A DNA stretch of 40,867 bases from Eledone cirrhosa (lineage: Eukaryota): contig CAXHJY010001265.1 in NCBI GenBank assembly GCA_964016885.1, positions 1-40,867 of the forward strand, in the 5' to 3' direction. The position numbers and the translations under genes are program-made. Shown in pieces: positions 3,542 through 39,942 of this stretch. The stretch's first letter is position 1. Each line of letters starts with the position of its first letter. The notes below the pieces were generated by a model. That model was not told the origin of the DNA and did not search any database. It saw only the letters and a program-made list of their open reading frames with translations.

Positions 3542-4752
<1,211 letters not shown>

Positions 4753-4753
<1 letters not shown>

Positions 4754-4920
4754 AGGATGAATTCAGTTTGAAACTGGTTAGCCAATTACTCAAGAGTACT
4801 CGATACTTGGGGTAGTATCGTATGGTTATAGTATAAGGAGTCGGAGCCCGACGGCTGAGCTCTTGCTATATTTCAACAGCTAGTTCTAGACTCTTCCTAG
4901 AACAGTCTGGAACTAGCTGC
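4753..4920 (-). mobile_element. (TA)n-abutting repeat family D, probable PLE terminus, with internal hairpin
   Basis: Shares gagtactc(g/a)atactt(g/a)gggtagta with 12801-13149 and 28650-28727, and cccgacggctgagctc with 12801-13149. Hairpin cagctagttctagact/agtctggaactagctg. Confidence 0.55.
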
Positions 4921-5996
4921 TATATTATTGTTGAAAAACTGGGGCGGTAGGGGTACAAATGTACAAATGAAAAAAAATATATATATTTGATCAGTTTAAT
5001 TTTACTGTTTCTTCACCAATGGTCATTTAGCCCATTCTACCCTATCTGACCATCACAACAAAACCTCCAATATCATTCTCACTCTATCACATTTTCATCT
5101 TAGTTTTCACTTTCCTATCATCCAAAAATGACATGTACCCTATTTTGATTTAGACTTCTTCATTTATATATATTCTCTTATCACTCTACTCACACTATCA
5201 CCCACTCTCTCTCCCCCTCCCCCTCCCTCTCTCTCTCTTTCTCTTTCTTTCTCTCTCTCTTTCTCTCTTTCTTTCTCTCTCTTTCCCTTTCACTCACTCA
5301 CTCACTCACTCACTCACTCACTCCACACTCACTCTCTCCACACTCACTCATCATCATCAATAGACCTATCGCTGAATACCAGAATATTCCCCAGGAAGTA
5401 AGGACTTATTGTAGAGATTTGAACTATTAAAGAAACCAAACACCAGTGAAGTCACCCCCCCCTCTCTCTAAAAGAGAGAGAGAGAGACGGAGAGTGAATA
5501 TGAAGGATGTAAAGAATAGACGAGCGAGAGCTATGAAAGGATAGTGAGAGAATGTGACGAAAGGAGAGATGTAACGAAAGATATAGAGAATAAAGACTTA
5601 CATGCCAACACGAGCAAGAATGAGGGGCTCATTTTACTGACATGGCTTTAAAAATGAGGCTTGTTTGCATAATTGCAAACGAATCGAATATTATTATTAA
5701 TATTCGAAAAACTCAGATTACATTTTTTGTATTCAGCCATGTAGAGCGAAAAAAAAAAATGTTTTTAAAATTATATATATATATATATATTTCGTTTCTG
5801 AATTTGTTTAGCAAGATTCTTTATCTGAAAACGTGTGTTGAAACCGATGTTGTTATACTTTGGGAGGGTCATGTTGCCAATAAGAAACACACGCACCAGT
5901 TGCTTTCACTTCAATTTATTATAATAAATTTATAAATTTAGGAATTTATAAATTTCCGGTTGGTTGGTTCCACAACCAGATGATTGTTTATATATT

Positions 5997-6039
5997 GTCA
6001 AAGTTCTTTCGTCACACATTCTGTGACCTCTTCAGTGAC
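5997..6039 (-). ncRNA. Minimal hammerhead ribozyme motif (family A)
   Basis: GUCA-CUGAAGA-G-GUCACA-GAAUG-UGUGAC-GAA-AGAACU-U-UGAC; same sense as the adjacent GIY-YIG fragment. Confidence 0.7.
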
Positions 6040-6220
6040 TGGCGATTCTTTTCTTTGTTTTTGTGCCTCTCCTTTGTTCTGTCCTACGCCATCTTGTTTT
6101 TGTGTGTGTTGTGTGCTTAGTTTGCGCATGTTACATCCGGGTGTCTGTGTGTGTTTATATTTATTTACATGTTACTGGTTGTTTGTTTGTTCTATGTGCG
6201 TGTGTGTTTTCATTTTGTCC

Positions 6221-6416
6221 TTAATTGTAAGTTGTGATGTTGCTGTTCCATTCATATTTTCTATTTAATTTTGGTTGGAGTTCATTTATGTTTATTGCCT
6301 CTGTGATTTGTCTAAACATTGCGTCTTTTCTGTGTGTAGATTCTATTTTTATTTCTATGTTCTCTAATTTACCCTTATGTTCTATTTTAGCATGTTGGTA
6401 GAGTACAGACGATTCT
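6221..6416 (-). pseudogene. Inverted second copy of the GIY-YIG fragment
   Basis: Minus strand reads ...RQITEAININELQPKLNRKYEWNSNITTYN*. Confidence 0.8.
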
Positions 6417-6419
6417 AGG

Positions 6420-6656
6420 GAACGGATAAATGAACACTGGCGAGACCTTCAAGATAGTAAAGAATCGTCTGTATTCTACCAACATGCTAAAATAGAACAT
6501 AAGGGTAAATTAGAGAACATAGAAATAAAAATAGAATCTACACACAGAAAAGACGCAATGTTTAGACAAATCACAGAGGCAATAAACATAAAAGAATTAC
6601 AACCAATATTAAATAGAAAACATGAGTGGAACAGCAACATCACAACTTACAATTAA
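6420..6656 (+). pseudogene. C-terminal fragment of a Penelope-type GIY-YIG endonuclease
   Basis: Manual translation ERINEHWRDLQDSKESSVFYQHAKIEHKGKLENIEIKIESTHRKDAMFRQITEAINIKELQPILNRKHEWNSNITTYN*. Shows the R-x-x-EH, H-x4-H, R-x3-EA-x-x-I and LN-x-K-x-EW motifs of PLE endonucleases. No start codon (5'-truncated). Confidence 0.85.
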
Positions 6657-6839
6657 GGACAAAATGAAAACACACACGCACATAGAACAAACAACCAACC
6701 AGTAACATGTAAATAAACAAATATAAACACACACACACACCCGGATGTAACATGCGCAAACTAAGCACACAACACACAAAAACAAGATGGCGTAGGACAG
6801 AACAAAGGAGAGGCACAAAATCAAAGAAAAGAATCCCCA

Positions 6840-6882
6840 GTCACTGAAGAGATCACAGAATGTGTGACGAAAGAACTTTGAC
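6840..6882 (+). ncRNA. Minimal hammerhead ribozyme motif (family A)
   Basis: CTGAAGA at 6844-6850, GAAA at 6869-6872, stem I gtca/tgac; about 185 nt downstream of the endonuclease stop codon. Confidence 0.7.
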
Positions 6883-7530
6883 AATATATAAACAATCATC
6901 TGGTTGTGGAACCAACCAACCTACCGGAAATTTATAAATTCCTAAATTTATTATAATAAATTGAAGTGAAAGCAACTGCTGCGTGTGTTTCTTATTGGCA
7001 ACATGATCCTCCCAAAGTATAACAATATATATATATATATATATATGAATGAATGAAAGGGTAGAGAGATAGATGATAACGAAAAGAGAAGAAAGTGTAA
7101 GAGGAGAGAAGGTTGAAAGTGTAGACAGAATATGAAGAATAGACGAGAGAGATGAAATGATAGTGAGAGAATACGAATAAAGATGTGACGAAATATAGAG
7201 AATAATGACGATGAATGAACGGATAGAGAAAGAATATGAAGAGAGTGTGCATGTAAAAATGGAGAGTCGTGGAGAGAGAGAGATGACTGTAACTAGAAGA
7301 AAAAAGCGAAGTTTTGACAAAAAGTGTTTGGTTGTGCTGTTTTAGTTTTTCTTTATATGGAAAAAGAAGCTTGTTTGTCATAGCGTGTCAAGGATAGCGA
7401 GTTACTAAAATTAGTCATTATTGATCATGTTGGTTGTTGTTGTTATTGCTTTATTTCATTTGTTTGTTTGGCATAGTGTGTGCGCGCTTTTCTCTTTGTC
7501 TCTCAGTCAGTCTGTATTTACCCATCTACA

Positions 7531-7995: not shown

Positions 7996-8043
<48 letters not shown>

Positions 8044-8044
8044 C

Positions 8045-8185
8045 ATGGAAACTATATTTATAAAACCATATTTATTTCATTATACATATTTCAAGGACAC
8101 CAAGTCAAATTATGGTGCGCTTTCATCAGATAAAATATAATATAGATCAGTTTTATAAATATGGTTTTATAAATATAGTTTCCAT
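8045..8185. mobile_element. Short hammerhead-bearing fold-back element (family B)
   Basis: 30-bp perfect inverted repeats 8045-8074/8156-8185 enclose a hammerhead; homologous to 28471-28600 and 29043-29353. Confidence 0.8.
8073..8137 (-). ncRNA. Minimal hammerhead ribozyme motif (family B)
   Basis: UAUUUUAU-CUGAUGA-AAGCGCACCA..UGGUGUCCUU-GAA-AUAUGUAU-A-AUGAAAUA. Confidence 0.8.
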
Positions 8186-8609
8186 TTGTTAATATATCGT
8201 ATTTTTACTCCAATAATTTGTTGAGTGCTTTATATCAGTTATAAAAATATTTGCTTTTAATTTGAATTATTGATTCTTTGGGCAAATATCCATTGAGCTT
8301 TTCTCCTGAGAAACATAATCATCATGCATATTATATATATATATATGTGTGTGTGTGTGTATGAGGCATGTATGTATTCACGCACACACATTAACATTAA
8401 CATTTACCTTAATTGCCACTGGGGCGATTTAATAACAAGAACACTCTCGTCCTTCCCTCTTCTCTCGTTTGTAAACTTATTCTTATGCACACATGCAGAA
8501 AGCATTACTTGATTGGTTGGTGAATTTTGTTGAACAAGCGTGAGCGCGCCTCGTCTGCTTCTGATGTAGAACTAGAAGCATATTTTCTTTCATAATTCTT
8601 AATAGCAAT

Positions 8610-8640
<31 letters not shown>

Positions 8641-9036
8641 AGTGCTAGAGTGAGAGAGATGTGGTGGGGACGGTGGAGCACTATCTATTTCTATCTAAAT
8701 ATCCTCTGAGAAATAGAAAGACACATGAAACTCAATAAGAAATGTTTCTAAGATTCTGATTTAAAACATTTATACTCCTCCTCCCTCCTAGTCTCTCCCT
8801 GTCTTGGATCAATTAAGATTTATTGTCCTCTGGTGTGGGTGTATTTGTGTAACCAGGTATTTTATGGTGGAGCTGACCCCCGTGTAAACACCCACCAGGT
8901 GAAGTTCAATATAACATTTTAAATGTTTCATTTATAAGACATACATGCGCGCACGCTCGTACACTTTCTATCTCCCCCCCCCCCCATCTCAATGGTTGAG
9001 AAAGTACGATAAGGTATTATTATTAGCCAATCCAAA

Positions 9037-9613
9037 GGGCAGTGGATTGGCAGTATCGGTAGAGGGTCGGACGCCATGCTTTGCAGCATAGAGTTACGGC
9101 TCTTTATGATTTGAGCTCAAATCCCGCCGAGGTTAACTTTGCCTTTCATCCTTATGGGGTCGATAAAATAAAGTACCAGTCACGCACTGGGGTCGATTTA
9201 ATCGACTTTCTCCCCCCCCCCCCCCCAAAAAAAAAAATTTACTGGCCTTGTGCCCATATAAGAAACCATTATTAGCCAATCCAAAGGGCAGTGGATTGGC
9301 AGTATCGGTAGAGGGTCGGACGCCATGCTTTGACGCATAGTTACGGCCCTTGCCATTCTGAGTTCAAATCCCGCCGAGGTTAACTTTGCCTTTCATCCTT
9401 ACGGGGTCGATAAAATAAAGTACCAATAATGCACTGGGTAATTTCTGGCCTTGTGCCAAAAGTAGAAACAACTATTAGTCAATCCCGCCAAGGTTAGCTT
9501 TAACTTTCATCCTTACGAGGTCGATAGAATAAAGTACCAGTAATGAACATGGGTCGATTTAATCGACTTTCCCCACCTCCAAAATTGTTGGCCTTGTGCC
9601 TAAATCAGAAACC
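9037..9613 (+). mobile_element. Three tandem copies of the dominant tRNA-derived SINE
   Basis: A-box-like tggcagtatcggt, B-box gagttcaaatcc, tail ggccttgtgcc..agaaac. Copies at ~9037, ~9286 and ~9480, separated by attattagccaatcc-like sequence. Confidence 0.9.
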
Positions 9614-10232
9614 ATTATTAGCCAGTATGTCACGCGGTCAGATCTGCTTCAGTTGCTTGTTTCCTTTTTATTCTCTTTAAATATAGCACCTACAGTAATG
9701 CCACACCCGAGATATCAGTCACCATCAGAGACACACATTAACAAAATACCGGGAACTTACAAACCATTAAAGTTATCCTCATTGAGGTTAATCTCATAAA
9801 AGATTAAGACTATGGTGTTTATACATGTCTGCGCATGTCACCACCATTCTAATCCACTCTCTAAGAGGAGATATGATTGAAAAATAGAAAATATTAGCAC
9901 ATTATTCCAGATAAATGTAATGACTTGTAAAATATGAATGCTAGTTCACTGTTCCAATCTAAAAACTCTTGGAAATTACAACTTTGGAGGAAATAGATGG
10001 AACTGGAGACATGATACATTTAAAATGATGAAAGGACTTGAAAATATGCAGAAGAGTTCATCCATCGCCATCACACTTCTTTCTTTTTGGGGTGGGGGTG
10101 GAGGGTGAGGAAGGAAAAGGACCCTAAATATCATGAAATATATGGTACAAGTTGTTTGTCTTACTTTACTCTAGTTTTCACTCTTCTATTTCTAACTTGC
10201 ATTGTGCTGGCTTTCCCCCGAATAATCCTAAC

Positions 10233-12800: not shown

Positions 12801-12803
<3 letters not shown>

Positions 12804-12942
12804 CGAAGGAAATGTGGTAAGGAACCAGGTGGACCATAACGCACCAAAGTACTCAATACTTAGGGTAGTAGAGTGGGTAATTCTGGACGCGTCCAGAATT
12901 AGCCGTCGAAACGGCTTGAGCTCAGCCGTCGGGGTCTTACTT

Positions 12943-12984
<42 letters not shown>

Positions 12985-13147
12985 CAAAGGAATTGTGGTA
13001 AGGAACCAGATGGACCATAACGCACCAGAGTACTCAACACTTAGGGTAGTAGAGTGGGAAATAGGAAAAAGTATGACCCCGACGGCAGAGCTCAAGCCGT
13101 TAGCCGTCGAAACGGCTTGAGCTCTGTCGTCGGGGTCATACTTTTTA

Positions 13148-21048: not shown

Positions 21049-21568
21049 ACTCTTGGGTCTCAAATAATAGGGGGTTGGTGGAATAAGGGATCTCTTGATT
21101 TAAAAAACAAACAAACACAGAATTAGTCGTTTAGTTCACCTATTGAGGCCCCATCGCACCCTATTTTATAGCGTATAGGATTTTTTTGCAATATATAATT
21201 TTCTACATTTGGCACAAGGCCAACAATTATCCCAGTGCATTACTAGTACTTTATTTTATCAACCCCGTAAGGATGAAAGGTAAAGTTAACCTCGGTGGGA
21301 TTTGAACTCGGACCATAAAGAGGTGTAACTCTATGCTGCAAAGCATGGCGTCTGCCCCTCTACTGATACTGCCAATCCACCACCCTCATATATATAATGT
21401 TTTTTTTAATGTATAAAGAAAATTGATTGTAGCCGGACTGCTACCACTTAACAAATTAAAATTTCGCTGTAGATAGATTAGCAAAATTTAATAAGCGGGG
21501 GTGTGGTGTAGGGTGGACGAAAAAATCTGAAAAATTAATAAGCCGGGGTGGAGATGAGACCCAAGAGT
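21049..21568. mobile_element. MITE-like element with 14-bp TIRs, interrupted by a SINE
   Basis: actcttgggtctca (21049-21062) / tgagacccaagagt (21555-21568), with subterminal aata(a)g(c)gggg motifs. Confidence 0.65.
21200..21386 (-). mobile_element. Dominant tRNA-SINE copy
   Basis: Full consensus on minus; probable TSD atatataat (21191-21199 / 21390-21398). Confidence 0.9.
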
Positions 21569-21886: not shown

Positions 21887-21919
<33 letters not shown>

Positions 21920-21960
21920 AAATCTTAACCATTTAACATCTCAGGATATGTCATGTATCA

Positions 21961-22021
21961 TTATATTTTGTCTGATGAGGATGTACTGTTGTACCTCCGA
22001 AATATGTATAATAAAATGTAA
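21961..22021 (+). ncRNA. Minimal type I hammerhead ribozyme motif (family C)
   Basis: UUAUAUUUUGU-CUGAUGA-GGAUGUAC-UGUU-GUACCUCC-GAA-AUAUGUAU-A-AUAAAAUGUAA; predicted cut after A22010. Confidence 0.85.
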
Positions 22022-22087
22022 TTGATCACAAGACTATCTATTTTATTAATATTTGTATATTAATAAAATAGATGTTCTTTTGATCAA

Positions 22088-22148
22088 TTACATTTTATTA
22101 TACATATTTCGGAGGTACAACAGTACATCCTCATCAGACAAAATATAA
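22088..22148 (-). ncRNA. Minimal type I hammerhead ribozyme motif (family C), mirror copy
   Basis: Identical reverse complement of 21961-22021. Confidence 0.85.
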
Positions 22149-22355
22149 TGATACATGACATACCCTGAGATGTTAAATGGTTAAGATTTTATATATATAT
22201 ATATTTGTATAGAGATAGCACCCATGTCGTTGTGCATAACACCACTTCAGTATATACGGTTCCCCTTTTGTGAAGGTAAGAATGAAAAAAAAAGGGGGGG
22301 GGGGGGATATATTACAGGTTTTTGTATAATACGACCCACTAGAGTACAGACGTGG

Positions 22356-26725: not shown

Positions 26726-27035
26726 GAAGAAGAGGAAGATTTATGGAATATATAAGGCGAAATGAGGAAGACTAATTTGAAGAAACTGAGGCCTACGAAG
26801 GAGATGAGACTGAGAGAAGCTATACGTGGTGCTAAAGATCCGCTTACCTGTGATAGAATGGTGATAGGGATGATGGATTTTGGGAGTTATGATATATCTA
26901 CGTTTGTAAATAGACGCCAGCACGAGGAGTAATTTACCCAATTTTCTTATTACCTATTACAATCGATAGATATTACATTAATTTTCTGTTTGGGACTTTC
27001 ACATTTTCAATTTTACATTTGTGTTTCTCGCCCAG

Positions 27036-27615
27036 AATTGGCAGTATCGGTAGAGGGTCGGACATGTTTCCAGCATAGTTACGTCCCTTTACGATCTGAG
27101 TTCAAATCCGGCCGAGGTTAACTTTGCCTTTCATCCTTACGGGGTCGATAAAATAAAGTACCAGTAATACACTGGAATAATTGCTGGCCTTGTGCCAAAA
27201 GTAGAAATAATTATATTCCAATATTATAGGGTGGTGAATTGGCAGTGTCGGTAGAGGGTTGGACGCCATGCTTTCTAGCATAGTTACGTCCCTTTACGAT
27301 CTGAGTTCAAATCCCGCCGAGGTTAACTTTGCCTTTCATCCTTACGGGGTCGATAAAATAAAGTACTAGTAATGTACTGGGTAATTGCTGGCCTTGTGCC
27401 TAAAGTAGAAACAATTATATTCGAAGGGTGTTGATAAAGCATCGGACACCATGTCTCGTGACATAGTTACGTCCCTTTACGTTCTGAGTTCAAATCTCGC
27501 CGAGGTTATCTTTGCCTTTCATTCTTACGGGGTCGATAAAATAAAGCACCAGTAATACACTTGGGATCGACTACCCCCACCCCCATCGCCAACCTTCTGC
27601 CTAAATCAGAAACCA
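27036..27615 (+). mobile_element. Three tandem copies of the dominant tRNA-SINE
   Basis: Copies at ~27036, ~27229 and ~27425, each followed by attatattc. Confidence 0.9.
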
Positions 27616-28004: not shown

Positions 28005-28470
28005 ATTGATGCTCCAGGTTACTATTAATTGAACAGACCTATGATCAAAAACATTCCAGTATAGTGAGCTCCATATCTCCCCCTCCTCACCATCCCACCT
28101 TCCTACCATTCATATTGTGGTTCGGACCATATCTGATGTCTCCCTCCACATTTATTTTTACGATAGCAGGATGTGATTTCAGGAATTTTGGCTACTATTT
28201 CTAGCCGGCCGAGTAACCACGTAAGGGTTCCTTTTTGTGTTGTAATAGTTATGAGAGGAAATTATTCGTTTTAATCATAGAATTGGATATAACCTGATGT
28301 ATTTATTATGATTAAATCTAATTTATTATTCAATTAATTCGTATTAGGGTCAATGTAATCGACTGTTCCCTTCCCACGAATGTTGAGGCCTTTTTGCTTC
28401 TGGAAGAAATTACTATACAGCTAATCACAACCACCAACACTAAAAGAATATATATATATATATATATATA

Positions 28471-28600
28471 TAAGTAGAAGGGGTATTTAATTTGTTGGAA
28501 GTCCGACAAATATAAATATTTATAAAACCATATTTATTTTATTATATATATTTCAAGGGTACCAAGACACCTTTGGTACGCTTTCATCAGATAAAATACA
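28471..28600 (-). mobile_element. Family B element fragment between (TA)n tracts
   Basis: 28471-28568 is the reverse complement of ~29257-29353. Confidence 0.8.
28535..28598 (-). ncRNA. Minimal hammerhead ribozyme motif (family B)
   Basis: UAUUUUAU-CUGAUGA-AAGCGUACCAA-AGGUGUC-UUGGUACCCUU-GAA-AUAUAUAU-A-AUAAAAUA. Confidence 0.85.
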
Positions 28601-28601
28601 A

Positions 28602-28632
<31 letters not shown>

Positions 28633-28649
28633 TTTAACAATATAATATA

Positions 28650-28729
28650 ACCATACTCTACTACCCCAAGTATCGAGTACTCTTGTTGAGTAATGGTCTA
28701 ACCAGTTTCAAACCGAATCCATCCTGATT
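28650..28729 (+). mobile_element. Family D terminus followed by (TA)n
   Basis: Reverse complement of 4752-4828. Confidence 0.7.
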
Positions 28730-28855
28730 TATATATATATATATATATATAATATATATATTAAGTTGTTAAACAATATTCTATGATTATGTCAAAGAAT
28801 GAGTTTTACAGTAGATTGGAAGCACTCAACGAAAAATAATTTTCAGGAGTTATTA

Positions 28856-29011
28856 ATATTAAAATATAAGTATTAATAAAATAGATGTTCTTTTGATCAA
28901 TTACATTTTATTATCCATATTTCGGACGTACTGTTGTACATCCGAAATATGTATAATAAAATGTAATTGATCAAAAGAACATCTATTTTATTAATACTTA
29001 TATTTTAATAT
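28856..29011. mobile_element. Family C fold-back (76-bp arms) hinged on the hammerhead stem II loop
   Basis: ...tttcggacgtac-tgtt-gtacatccgaaa...; the arms match 21991-22050. Confidence 0.9.
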
Positions 29012-29042
29012 ATATATATATAAAAACAATGATATTAAATAA

Positions 29043-29349
29043 ATGGGAACTATATCTATAAAACCATATTTATTTTATTATATATATTTCAAGGGTACCA
29101 AGACAACATTGGTACGCTTTCTTCAGATAAAATACAAAGTTTGTTTTATATTTATAAAACAAACTTTGGTACGCTTTCTTCAGATAAAATACAAAGTTTG
29201 TTTTATATTTATAAAACAAACTTTGGTACGCTTTCATCAGATAAAATACAATGTTGTCTTGGTACCTTTGAAATATATACAATAAAATAAATATGGTTTT
29301 ATAAATATTTATATTTGTCGGACTTCCAACAAATTAAATACCCCTTCTA

Positions 29350-29353
<4 letters not shown>
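29043..29353. mobile_element. Family B element with 57-bp tandem reiterations and an inversion
   Basis: Units start at 29109, 29166 and 29223; the sequence is inverted from 29249. Confidence 0.85.
29071..29134 (-). ncRNA. Minimal hammerhead ribozyme motif (family B, CUGAAGA)
   Basis: UAUUUUAU-CUGAAGA-AAGCGUACCAA..UUGGUACCCUU-GAA-AUAUAUAU-A-AUAAAAUA. Confidence 0.82.
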
Positions 29354-29393
<40 letters not shown>

Positions 29394-31668: not shown

Positions 31669-31777
31669 AGCAGAAGTTAAGATCTTAGAGGTATTCTAGT
31701 CGTGTCTATTCCACCCTGTTGGCCGTTGTGTTCTACGTTATTATTACGTTATTATTCCTTCCCCCTGGATTATTCCT

Positions 31778-31955
31778 GGATTGGCAGTATCAGTAGAGAG
31801 TCGGACGCCATGCTTTCCAGCATAGTTACGTCCCTTTACGATCTGAGTTCAAATCCCGCCGAGGTTGACTTTGCCTTTCATCCTTATGGGGTCGATAAAA
31901 TAAAGTACCAGTAATGCACTGGGTAATTGCTGGCCTTGTGCCTAAAGTAGAAACA
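31778..31955 (+). mobile_element. Dominant tRNA-SINE copy with a 15-bp TSD
   Basis: gttattattccttcc at 31748-31762 and 31956-31970. Confidence 0.92.
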
Positions 31956-32006
31956 GTTATTATTCCTTCCTCCTCTTTTAAGACAGTATCACCTGTAATA
32001 ATACGT

Positions 32007-32619: not shown

Positions 32620-33296
32620 CGAATCCAGTGCATTACTGGTACTTTATTTTATCGACCCCGTACGTATGAAAAGCAAGGCTAATGTTAAATTTTCTTTTAC
32701 TTTTTGGTATTTAAAATACGTTCATCTTATGGTTAACTTAAAATAAGAGATAGACACAAACATTAATAAAAAATTTAACATTTGTTGGAAATTGTTTGTT
32801 CTTTCAAAAAGCCGCACAGAATGGCATCGGAGGCCGCAGATCCCCCATCTTTGTTCTAACCAGTCAGTCAATACACCAACACACTGATTTAGGCTCAAGG
32901 CCAATAATTTGGGTACTTTATTTTATCGACTCCGTAAGGATGAAAGGCAAAGCTAACCTCGGCGGGATTTGAACTCAGAACGTACAGGGCCGTAACTATA
33001 TGTTGCGGATGGTATTAAGGCTGTGAATTGGCAGTTGTTAGAGCTTGGTGGTCCGACCCTCTACCGATACCGATCATCCACTGCCCTTTATCAGTAGATT
33101 ATAGATAATTGTTTCTAATTTAGGCACAAGGCCAGCAAATACCCAGTGCATTACTGGTACTTTATTTTATCGACCTCGTAAGGATGAAAGGCAAAGTCAA
33201 CCTCGGCGGGATTTGAACTCAGATCGTAAAGGGACTTAACTATGCTGGAAAGCATGGCGTCCGACCCTCTACCGATACTGCCAATCCACCTGCCAA
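32620..33296 (-). mobile_element. Cluster of three minus-strand SINE copies
   Basis: Copies at ~32620-32680, ~32890-33087 and 33110-33296; the last has TSD tagattatagataat (33095-33109 / 33297-33311). Confidence 0.88.
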
Positions 33297-33835
33297 TAGA
33301 TTATAGATAATGATTAATAATTTGTATTGTGTAAATATTTCTCTCAGGTTGAGCCGTGTTTCTTGGTTTGTGTCAGTCTTTGCGCTTACGTAACTAACAA
33401 CACACTTTGTGTATGCCACCGCAAGCAACAACGTTTTGTTTCTTTGTTTATTTATTCAGAACTATTTATTCTGAACGCAGAAGATCATATTGTTTATTGC
33501 GCAATATTTTATGATGAGTAATGCTAACATGACCGAACACTGGTCAGTTTTTCTTTCAGTTAAGGATTTTTGGTGCGCGTGTGCGCGCGCACTTAACAAG
33601 TGGTACAATGTGCTTTTGAGCAAAATACTTTAATTTCATATTGTTGAAAATGAGTATCATCGTCAGCAGTAGCTTTAACCCAAGCCTTTTTTTAAAGGAT
33701 CACGAAGGGTGACAACTCTATCGTTGACGTTATATCCTCTCGTGTCCTTGGCAAAACGCCACATGTTGCAAATGTCCTTTATCCTAAATCTCTTAAAAGA
33801 ATCTCTATCATTTTTTTTTTGCTCAACATTATTTA

Positions 33836-36497: not shown

Positions 36498-36992
36498 CAC
36501 ATACATACATACATGTATAACTAACCATCTATTGTACCTATACGCACAATTATATTAATGAAACTTCCAGAGTAAAACAAAATTCACGAGTATGCCCCCC
36601 CCCCATACTGTTATATGTGGGGAGGGTCATGTTATAATATTGCCAGAAAAATAGTGTGTATATATGTATATATATATACATACATATATACACACTATAT
36701 ATATATATATGTGTATATGTATATATGTGTGTGTGTGTGTGTGTATATATATATGTGTGTGTATTTATATATGTGTATGTATGTGTGTACATATATATAT
36801 ATATATATATATGTGTGTGTATATATCTGTGTTGTGTGTGTGTGTATATATATATATACTTAATACATTAACAGAGAAAGCTATTAGCGATACTCCGACC
36901 AACTTCCATCTCACTCAACAAACATTAGGAAATACCTAAGTATATTCCCAATTATACGTATGGGGTGCTAACTATATTGTATTATGTGGAAG

Positions 36993-37179
36993 GGCCGGTG
37001 GATTGGCAGTATCGGTAGAGGGTCGGACTCCATGCTTTGACGCATAGTTACGGCCCTTGCCATTCTGAGTTCAAATCCCGCCGAGGTTAACTTTGCTTTT
37101 CATCCTTACGGGGTCGATAAAATAAAGTACCAGTAATGTACTGGTATAATTTGCTGGCCTTGTGCCTAAAGTAGAAACA
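36993..37179 (+). mobile_element. Dominant tRNA-SINE copy
   Basis: Nearly identical to 9286-9471; imperfect TSD att(a/g)tgtggaa. Confidence 0.92.
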
Positions 37180-37214
37180 ATTGTGTGGAAAGTCGGCTGT
37201 ATTATTTTATGAGA

Positions 37215-37760: not shown

Positions 37761-37897
37761 ATTGTTTCTACTTTTGGCACACGGCCACCAATTAGCCTAG
37801 AGCATTACTGGTACTTTATTTTATCGGCCCCGTAAGGATGAAAGGCAAAGTTAACTTCGGCGGGAATTGAACTCAGAACGTAAATGGCCATAACTCT

Positions 37898-37972
<75 letters not shown>

Positions 37973-38365
37973 GTTTGTACTTTGGCACAAGGCCAGCAAA
38001 TTATCCCAGTACATTACTGGTACTTTATTTTATCGACCCCGTAAGGATGAAAGGCAAAGTTAACCTCAGCGGGATTTGAACTCAGACCGTAAAGGGACGT
38101 AAATATGCTGCAAAATGTGTGTGTGTGTGATTATAATGTACCATTACCACCTGTATAGAAACGAACGTAGATATAAAAAAATGGATTTAATTTGATAACC
38201 TTGGCTCTCTTCATTGTCGAATAGAATGCTTTACGGTATTCATCTTTGCTCTCTCAGTTCAAATTCCGCCGAGGCCAACTTTGCCTTTCATCCTTTTGAG
38301 GTCGATGAAATAAAGTACCAGTAATTCCTGAGATAATTGCTGGCCTTGTGCCAAAAGTACAAACG
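37761..38365. mobile_element. Three 5'-truncated SINE copies (37761-37898 -, 37969-38112 -, 38254-38365 +)
   Basis: Consensus B-box and tail motifs. Confidence 0.88.
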
Positions 38366-38404
<39 letters not shown>

Positions 38405-39410: not shown

Positions 39411-39762
39411 AAATTGGAAACAATTTCATGTTGAAAGACCACATTAAGTTACTTATAATATAATAAAGCCGCATTCAAGAAACTATAATTATATATTCTT
39501 AAAATGTTGATAGTCACTGGCGTTCAAAGCCCCCACGGGTTCTCACCAACCAGCCTCGGGTGATAGTGGCTCCAGTTAAGCAGGAATTTAATGTACATTC
39601 TAGAATCGTATTAGAACTAAAACATGAGTGTGGAAAGTGCTGAAAGGGCCCTTATGATTTATTTTTATTCTGGCTGTCAGTATGGATTATGTCGTTGAAT
39701 TTTCTTTTACTCTTTGGTAATTAAAATACCCCTCCCCCATCTTATGGTTTGAATTAAAATAA

Positions 39763-39942
39763 TTGTTTCTACTTTTGGCACAAGGCCAGCAATTATCCCA
39801 GTGTATTACTGGTACTTTATTTTATCAACCCCGTAAGGATGAAAGGCAAAGTTAACCTCGGCGGGATTTGAACTCAGACCATAAAGGGCCGTAACTCTTT
39901 GCTGCAAAGCATGGCGTCCGACCTTCTACCGATACTGCCAAT
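39763..39942 (-). mobile_element. Dominant tRNA-SINE inserted in an older repeat (TSD aataa)
   Basis: Flanks 39690-39762 and 39943-40062 join to match the uninterrupted 32682-32860. Confidence 0.9.

What the first reader, a model, noticed from the sequence alone, without database searches (positions are those of the whole stretch)
28856..29011. Fold-back hinge falls exactly on the ribozyme stem II loop
Seen: the 4-nt loop of this palindrome (tgtt) is the stem II loop of the family C hammerhead, so both arms carry only the GAAA half. Inference: nascent cDNA snapped back on the ribozyme's own hairpin and self-primed, so ribozyme structure would dictate inversion breakpoints. Family B (29249) and family D (~12879, ~13102) breakpoints also fall in or next to stem-loops.
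Basis: partly seen in the sequence, partly recalled or inferred. Interest (0 to 1): 0.72.

Follow-up and report, generated by a model that had tools for sequence, protein, structure and literature searches.

The report
Twin-primed Penelope joint at ribozyme stem
This DNA palindrome is a head-to-head stub of a Penelope-like jumping gene, likely made by joining two separately primed DNA copies at the ribozyme's self-complementary stem; that stem is a favoured local joining site but explains only about one in a hundred such joints, so the locus is mostly ordinary.

Summary
The palindrome is real and its 4-nt loop is the hammerhead stem II loop, but the strand switch lies at the base of stem II (28924-28926): the whole native stem, mismatch included, belongs to the + arm. 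The opposite arm carries a 94-nt element 'tail' (28762-28855) that the + arm lacks, so it cannot be a snap-back copy of that arm. The element is a Hydra-like Penelope retroelement. In an unbiased sample, 52 of 76 insertions are head-to-head, 50 of 52 have the tail on exactly one arm, and 0 of 52 have both ends in stem II; 46 of 128 arm ends pile up at a TATA/initiator site, the likely RNA 5' end. Stem-II-register joints are about 5 (family C) and 12 (family B) genome-wide, roughly 1% or less of inversions, yet locally enriched in family B (13 of 45 joints on 1 of 31 registers, P about 1e-9). Best reading: two cDNAs primed from both target ends, joined by microhomology; stem II biases, but does not dictate, the joint. 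The layout is published, and this scan noted twin priming before on other DNA. Interest 0.3.

The parts
28730..28761 (.). (TA)n target, left flank
28762..28855 (-). Element tail (sequence between the two inferred reverse-transcription start sites, about +62 to +157 from the 3' tag), present on the left arm only
   Evidence: matches the tail of L016 with 1 difference; the same stretch follows the 5' pLTR at the start of the ORF in near-full-length copy L064
28856..28923 (-). Left, inverted arm: pLTR 3' part from GAAA onward; lacks stem II loop and CUGAUGA
   Evidence: 67 of 68 nt complementary to 28944-29011
28924..28926 (.). GGA overlap shared by both arms: the strand-switch point, at the base of stem II
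   Evidence: native C-A mismatch at 28927/28940 kept, so the switch lies outside it
28924..28943 (+). Complete native hammerhead stem II (5' strand 28924-28931, loop TGTT 28932-28935, 3' strand 28936-28943), part of the right arm
   Evidence: same as intact copies; stem II covaries between families B and C, 5 of 7 pairs with changes on both sides in 8 sequences
28944..29011 (+). Right arm: GAAA, short palindromic stem III (28947-28954), predicted cleavage site after 28955, stem I 3' strand, end at the tailless site (+61)
   Evidence: +61 is the end of 67 of 186 arms mapped
29010..29021 (.). (TA)n target, right flank
21892..22217 (.). Reference: two family C pieces with intact hammerheads (21972-22002 +, 22137-22107 -), arranged tail-to-tail

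Best explanation
The palindrome is a head-to-head insertion of two 5'-truncated pieces of a Hydra-like Penelope retroelement in a (TA)n tract, likely made as two separate cDNAs that were primed from the two cut target ends and then joined. Inferred steps: the endonuclease cuts both strands; one end primes reverse transcription at the tailless start (+61), the other at the tail start (about +157), on RNA from the same source element; both cDNAs are antisense, so their 3' ends can pair only where the element is self-complementary; here one cDNA stopped just after copying stem II and the other at its foot, they annealed in the stem's own register (GGA/TCC, up to 8 bp with one G-T wobble), and fill-in gave the palindrome. 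Shown: the anatomy, the one-sided tail, the microhomology excess and the counts. Stem II is the best inverted microhomology near the ribozyme, so it is favoured when both cDNAs end there, but most cDNAs run on to the likely RNA 5' end (-98) or beyond and join elsewhere through 1-4 nt overlaps.
For: Tail on the arm without the loop in this copy and in 10 of 17 stem-II-register loci (3 of 5 family C; 7 of 12 family B). Unbiased sample from the first 100 of 2453 tag hits (76 insertions): 52 head-to-head, tail on exactly one arm in 50 of 52, on both in 0, and in 15 of 52 the partner arm starts downstream of the tag and carries tail sequence absent from the main arm. In 93 mapped short-gap joints the tail is on the shorter arm in 38 and the longer arm in 37 (10 equal, 8 none). 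Both arms share a subfamily C/T variant in 71 of 73 scorable loci (alleles 68:78), so one source, one event. Microhomology: mean 2.26 nt in 61 joints without inserts against 0.89 expected, 0 of 5000 simulations as high. Arm ends: 46 of 128 in -104..-86 against 10 in stem II (-27..-8); the A of TCACT is at -98, 31 nt after TATAAA. Family B register: 13 of 45 (12 true stem II) on one of 31 registers, next best 4. In vitro, a Poseidon PLE cuts and extends both target strands and starts at two sites flanking the tail (PMC11167929).
Against: No intermediate was observed; the order of events is inferred from finished insertions. Short flipped copies of an arm end do occur at joints (at least 5 of 14 inserts of 7 nt or more: L151, L172, L180, L182, L183), L001 shows a 4-nt excursion at the base of stem II and L187 a 20-odd-nt inverted arm without tail, so transient snap-back exists in this family. 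In family C the local stem II enrichment is not significant with exact tags (1 of 11, P = 0.30). The in vitro data are from another clade. (TA)n flanks hide target-site duplications. The RNA 5' end at -98 is inferred from motif and end pile-up only.
Confidence: 0.75

Rival explanations
1. One reading: one nascent cDNA copied stem II, snapped back on its own hairpin and self-primed the second arm.
For: The cDNA strand of the centre folds better than the sense strand (-10.0 vs -8.0 kcal/mol, DNA parameters; the C-A mismatch becomes G-T). The native stem is kept whole. Short flipped copies at joints, L001 and L187 fit brief snap-back. Self-priming was proposed for palindromic PLE junctions (PMC3846280, passages).
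Against: A snap-back copy cannot hold sequence that its template lacks, yet the non-loop arm has the 94-nt tail; same in 10 of 17 register loci; tail on shorter arm 38 vs longer 37; median arm-length difference 52 nt, only 23 of 93 within 12 nt; no inverted copy of the flanking DNA here.
Confidence: 0.06
2. A fold-back intermediate (cDNA or antisense RNA self-priming) first gives a symmetric palindrome, which the endonuclease then trims at two staggered sites, leaving the tail on either arm.
For: Would also give a tail on exactly one arm and shared variants in both arms; the tail was ascribed to endonuclease resolution (PMC8557442, passage) and antisense self-priming was proposed (PMC3846280).
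Against: Needs loops of 50 nt to over 2 kb closed by 0-4 nt overlaps; 15 of 52 partners are tail or 3' pieces only; the two tail boundaries were shown in vitro to be reverse-transcription starts (PMC11167929).
Confidence: 0.09
3. The stem II joint is secondary: a longer head-to-head palindrome lost its centre by slippage between the two GGA(T/C)GTAC copies, which are direct repeats on one strand of such a palindrome.
For: The sequence geometry gives exactly this product (follows from the stem's symmetry); long palindromes are known to be deletion-prone (recalled). It would also explain the local register enrichment.
Against: No precursor allele seen; arms differ at only 1 of 68 nt, which leaves little time; primary joints in this family already show microhomology.
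Confidence: 0.08
4. Assembly or long-read fold-back artefact.
For: The window is a whole small contig (C1292); no contig of 4 public runs spans the joint.
Against: Arms differ, the tail is one-sided, both ends fall on the family's recurrent ends in (TA)n, and other loci have the same joint with different flanks.
Confidence: 0.02

Closest known systems
Endonuclease-positive Penelope-like insertions with an inverted 5'-truncated pLTR and a one-sided tail (PMC8557442; PMC3846280; passages read)
   Same: Head-to-head inverted pLTR pieces, tail on one end only, (TA)n target, hammerhead in the pLTR, TATA plus TCACT initiator in the pLTR.
   Different: Tail about 95 nt instead of 30-40 nt; both arms here are cut inside the hammerhead; those papers leave the origin open or favour self-priming, while the counts here favour two primed ends.
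Hydra clade of C-terminal-endonuclease PLEs (PMC8557442, passages)
   Same: CxCX5C linker, no CCHH in the GIY-YIG domain, CxxC and CxH motifs, DKT motif, (TA)n target, hammerhead.
   Different: About 4.2 kb with a 3' non-coding part of about 1.7 kb, against 'generally under 3 kb'; RWK appears as SWR at best; no tree was built.
Poseidon PAc in vitro (PMC11167929; abstract, main text and start of methods read)
   Same: Two reverse-transcription starts flank the tail, which lies at the start of the ORF; both target strands are cut and extended.
   Different: Other clade; the paper does not treat how inverted copies are joined in the parts read.
LINE-1 twin priming with microhomology joining (PMC10760644, passage)
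   Same: Two primed cDNAs joined through microhomology.
   Different: In L1 the two cDNAs copy different parts of one RNA; here they overlap (both copy the pLTR end), which gives a palindrome, and both starts are fixed sites.
Type-I PLE hammerheads with short palindromic helix III (PMC4209133, passages)
   Same: CUGAUGA/GAAA core, 3-bp helix III with palindromic loop, mismatch inside helix II; thought to act as dimers.
   Different: At this locus the core is destroyed (no CUGAUGA), so no cleavage is expected.

Membership tests
Type-I hammerhead (intact family C/B motif) | CUGANGA and GAAA core with UH cleavage site | tested here: met
   Invariant in 8 aligned B and C copies; core scan. Rfam gave no hammerhead match up to E = 1.
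Type-I hammerhead (intact family C/B motif) | Three helices, with covariation | tested here: met
   98.6% of 144 cells paired; stem II has 5 of 7 pairs changed on both sides; stems I and III show none; only 8 related sequences.
Type-I hammerhead (intact family C/B motif) | Self-cleavage | not testable with these tools
   No assay; no RNA holder listed.
Type-I hammerhead (this locus) | Complete core in the palindrome | tested here: not met
   CUGAUGA replaced by the inverted arm.
EN+ Penelope-like element | RT plus C-terminal GIY-YIG ORF upstream of the pLTR | tested here: met
   L064: YRDD RT motif and VYKC..YIG endonuclease in broken frames on the hammerhead strand; read by motif only, Pfam gave no significant hit on 6 fragments.
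EN+ Penelope-like element | pLTR at both ends with tail continuing into the ORF start | tested here: met
   L064 holds a 5' pLTR piece plus tail at about -4086..-3883 followed by the ORF.
EN+ Penelope-like element | Inverted 5'-truncated copy with one-sided tail | tested here: met
   52 of 76 insertions; tail one-sided in 50 of 52.
Hydra clade | CxCX5C linker; CCHH absent; CxxC and CxH in the endonuclease; DKT | tested here: met
   CNCRNKSNC, no cysteine pair between VYK and YIG, CPLC and CLH in L049; DKSDKT in L064 against the description in PMC8557442.
Hydra clade | RWK motif; length generally under 3 kb | tested here: inconclusive
   LSWR in L064; element about 4.2 kb.
Hydra clade | Phylogenetic placement of RT | not tested
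   No tree built; no reference proteins fetched.
Snap-back (self-primed) inversion | Second arm is a subset of the loop-bearing arm | tested here: not met
   Non-loop arm has 94 extra element nt.
Twin-primed insertion | Each arm starts at its own priming site on a target end; joint by microhomology | tested here: met
   Arms end at +61 and about +157 in (TA)n; 3-nt overlap here; excess microhomology family-wide.
Twin-primed insertion | Target-site duplication or direct proof of two primed strands | not testable with these tools
   (TA)n flanks hide a duplication; needs biochemistry.

The most novel reading that the evidence does not exclude
Penelope-like integration is as a rule two-ended: one cDNA from each of two fixed start sites, one per cut target strand, made by a paired complex on RNA of one source element. 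The hammerhead's stem II then serves as a built-in annealing site that closes the gap when both cDNAs end in the ribozyme, with a strength that scales with stem length (about ninefold local enrichment for the longer family B stem), so junction statistics read out the missing second half of the PLE transposition cycle.
Probability: 0.35. Interest if true: 0.55.

Novelty: new member of a known kind. Interest (0 to 1): 0.3.

Why it matters
How Penelope-like elements form their inverted ends is stated to be open (PMC8557442) and self-priming has been the published suggestion (PMC3846280). The counts here (tail on exactly one arm in 50 of 52, on either arm equally, shared variants in 71 of 73) favour two primed ends and give a testable prediction for the existing in vitro system. 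The ribozyme's role is modest: its stem II is a local microhomology hot spot, not the determinant of breakpoints. The single locus itself is a dead stub.

Tried and rejected
DNA search of the own genome with 28932-29011 found nothing (repeats are skipped), so exact patterns were used. Rfam gave only microsatellite-driven miRNA-type matches, no hammerhead. Pfam gave no significant hit for 6 ORF fragments. No RNA holder listed, so the start site at -98 and ribozyme cleavage could not be checked. Contigs of 4 public runs (one study) are too fragmented to span the joint. The automatic inversion call (54 of 76) held false and missed partners and was replaced (52 of 76; L053 and L088 were counted as single because their inverted hits lay far away in non-element DNA). 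One place (L104 = L035) was dropped as a duplicate from the gap set (94 to 93; 159 to 158). Only 15 of 80 pairs in the 106-135 bin were mapped; all 79 rows of the 15-105 bins were. L211 was dropped from the 13 family B hits as not in register. Idea that tail-bearing arms come only from the 5' pLTR and cannot pass the start site: rejected, several reach 400-1350 nt upstream. Idea that C3:330.7M is a haplotype copy of this locus: rejected, it is a 4-nt switch inside an otherwise forward copy. Enrichment of arm ends in stem II or its loop regardless of register: not found (50 vs 45.9; 18 vs 14.2). The place look-up of earlier notes returned nothing.

Full report
Observation. The window is one whole contig (C1292) of a 3.0-Gb, (TA)n-rich animal genome. 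The palindrome is there: arms 28851-28931 and 28936-29016, 95% complementary, spacer TGTT. Intact family C hammerheads at 21972-22002 (+) and 22137-22107 (-) show that TGTT is the stem II loop. The motif is a type-I hammerhead with a 3-bp palindromic stem III; stem II covaries between families B and C (5 of 7 pairs changed on both sides in 8 sequences), like the PLE hammerheads described in PMC4209133 (passages). Rfam does not detect it.

Where the switch really is. Genomic copies read CTGATGA GGACGTAC TGTT GTACATCC GAAA. The window's 28924-28943 is this stem unchanged, with the native C-A mismatch. The loop therefore only looks like the hinge because stem II is itself a hairpin: the + arm contains all of stem II, and the inverted arm takes over within GGA at 28924-28926. 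Outside the stem the arms match at 67 of 68 nt. The left arm then continues for 94 nt (28762-28855) that the right arm lacks; this stretch matches the downstream extension of other copies. Both ends lie in (TA)n.

The element. The 23-nt tag 3' of the ribozyme has 2453 exact hits. Walking upstream, L064 is a near-full-length copy of about 4.2 kb with broken frames for a reverse transcriptase (YRDD), a CxCX5C linker and a GIY-YIG domain without CCHH, the marks of the Hydra clade of Penelope-like elements (PMC8557442, passages); the clade is assigned by motifs only, and Pfam found nothing on the fragments. In L064 the extension follows the 5' pLTR at the start of the ORF, so it is the PLE 'tail'. 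In vitro, the two ends of the tail are reverse-transcription start sites and both target strands are cut and extended (PMC11167929; parts 1-2 of 4 read).

Test of snap-back. A self-primed arm is copied from the first cDNA and cannot hold more element sequence than it. Here the loop-bearing arm is tailless and the other arm has the tail. Among stem-II-register loci the tail is on the non-loop arm in 3 of 5 for family C and 7 of 12 for family B. Among 93 mapped short-gap joints (all pairs with 15-105 nt between tags, and 15 of 80 with 106-135 nt) the tail is on the shorter arm in 38, the longer in 37, on equal arms in 10 and absent in 8; never on both. In the unbiased sample (first 100 of 2453 hits, all on contig 1, 76 insertions) 52 are head-to-head, 50 of these have the tail on exactly one arm, and in 15 the partner starts downstream of the tag and carries tail sequence missing from the main arm. 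The two arms share a subfamily variant in 71 of 73 scorable loci. This is what two cDNAs from two start sites, one per target end, would leave. Against a pure reading: brief snap-back does happen. At least 5 of 14 junction inserts of 7 nt or more are 11-17-nt flipped copies of the adjacent arm end, L001 has a 4-nt flipped excursion at the base of stem II, and L187 has a short inverted arm with no tail on either side.

Test of 'structure dictates breakpoints'. Family C head-to-head pairs with exact tags number 11, 18, 50 and 80 for gaps of 15-45, 46-75, 76-105 and 106-135 nt (one place counted twice); one of 158 has the stem II register (gap 34). A looser pattern finds 5 such loci genome-wide, this one included, against roughly 600 pairs with both tags exact or 1300 inversions in all (scaled from 24 and 52 per 100 hits): 1% or less, as an order of magnitude, since exact patterns undercount both sides. 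In the unbiased sample 0 of 52 have both ends in stem II; 46 of 128 arm ends fall in -104..-86 and 10 in the equally wide stem II. Position -98 is the A of TCACT, 31 nt after TATAAA, the promoter layout noted for rotifer pLTRs (PMC3846280, passage); run-off at the RNA 5' end is the likely cause (inference; no RNA data). Joints show a general microhomology excess (mean 2.26 vs 0.89 nt in 61 joints), and arm ends are not enriched in stem II as such (50 of 93 vs 45.9 expected). In the window itself, the family A pair turns about 400 nt from its ribozymes (5847-7028) and the family B pair at 8042-8188 joins outside stem II.

When both arms end at the ribozyme, stem II register is preferred. For family B (9134 exact tags; about 22 head-to-head pairs per 100 listed hits, counted by eye from coordinates), 13 of 45 joints across 31 registers fall on the stem II register, 12 of them true (P = 1.1e-9 for 13, 1.4e-8 for 12); the next register has 4. 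A cross-family search gave 163 rows; about 14 of the first 48 distinct places look in register by eye. For family C alone the local excess is not significant with exact tags (1 of 11, P = 0.30). Two antisense cDNA ends can pair only at inverted repeats, so this bias follows from sequence complementarity and needs neither snap-back nor a folded ribozyme. Twelve loci are still about 0.6% of the estimated 2000 family B pairs.

Mechanism and rivals. Best: twin priming from both target ends with microhomology joining, here in stem II register (0.75). Rivals: fold-back intermediate trimmed later at two staggered sites (0.09), later deletion of a longer palindrome between the two near-identical 8-mers (0.08), simple snap-back (0.06), artefact (0.02). 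Shown: anatomy and counts. Inferred: order of events, identity of start sites and of the RNA 5' end.

Comparison with what is known. Inverted pLTRs with a one-sided tail are the described layout of these elements (PMC8557442, PMC3846280; passages). Twin priming is a proposed model for LINE-1 inversions (PMC10760644, passage), where the two cDNAs copy different parts of the RNA. Five searches of the held library listed no paper on a stem-II register bias or on twin priming in PLEs; subscription journals are largely missing and no supplements were read, so this is not proof of novelty. The bioRxiv retrozyme paper (10.64898/2026.07.22.740005, two passages) did not treat inversions in the passages seen. 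Earlier notes of this scan reach the twin-priming reading on other DNA (unchecked AI notes, seen after my own reading was noted). Verdict: a new member of a known kind, with a real but minor local effect of the ribozyme stem. Interest 0.3.

Noticed in passing
window 21892-22217: Two family C pieces with intact hammerheads arranged tail-to-tail (3' ends meet near 22054), both 5' ends at about -87 directly in (TA)n and both with the same stem II variant; the opposite of the usual head-to-head layout.
   Followed up: no
window 29105-29255: Family B copy with a 57-nt unit repeated 2.6 times; each unit holds the CUGANGA half through the top of stem II plus a small AT hairpin, suggesting repeated template jumps around stem II.
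   Followed up: partly
family C pLTR, position -129 to -98 from the tag (e.g. L032 about 1371-1402): TATAAA 31 nt before a TCACT initiator; arm ends pile up there (18 of 128 at -98..-96). Family B copies seem to start at a similar CACTA site (seen by eye).
   Followed up: partly
L001 (G000:C3:330677519): Forward family C copy in which ATGA of the core is replaced by TTTC, the complement of GAAA: a 4-nt template-switch mutation at the base of stem II that destroys the ribozyme core.
   Followed up: partly
window 5766-7028: Family A head-to-head pair of about 1.2 kb with hammerheads at 6035 (-) and 6844 (+), extension on the left arm only, turn near 6437 far from the ribozymes.
   Followed up: partly
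window 12803-13146, 28628-28729, 4751-4925: Family D: (TA)n-targeted repeat with the same head-to-head, one-sided 85-nt tail layout but no CUGANGA core in the pieces seen; its parent element was not identified.
   Followed up: partly
window 28448-29390: Nest of families B, D and C inserted side by side in one (TA)n tract; similar B/C/D neighbours recur in fetched loci.
   Followed up: no
L064 (G000:C1:131533775-131539375): Near-full-length Hydra-like PLE of about 4.2 kb with a 3' non-coding part of about 1.7 kb and an asparagine-rich stretch between RT and linker; frames broken by stops and shifts.
   Followed up: partly
window 9019-9620, 21191-21386, 27035-27570, 31777-31966, 32912-33298, 36990-37182, 37761-38403, 39756-39942: A frequent dispersed repeat of about 190 nt, often in tandem or nested; one copy is inserted in family C loci L001 and L013.
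   Followed up: no
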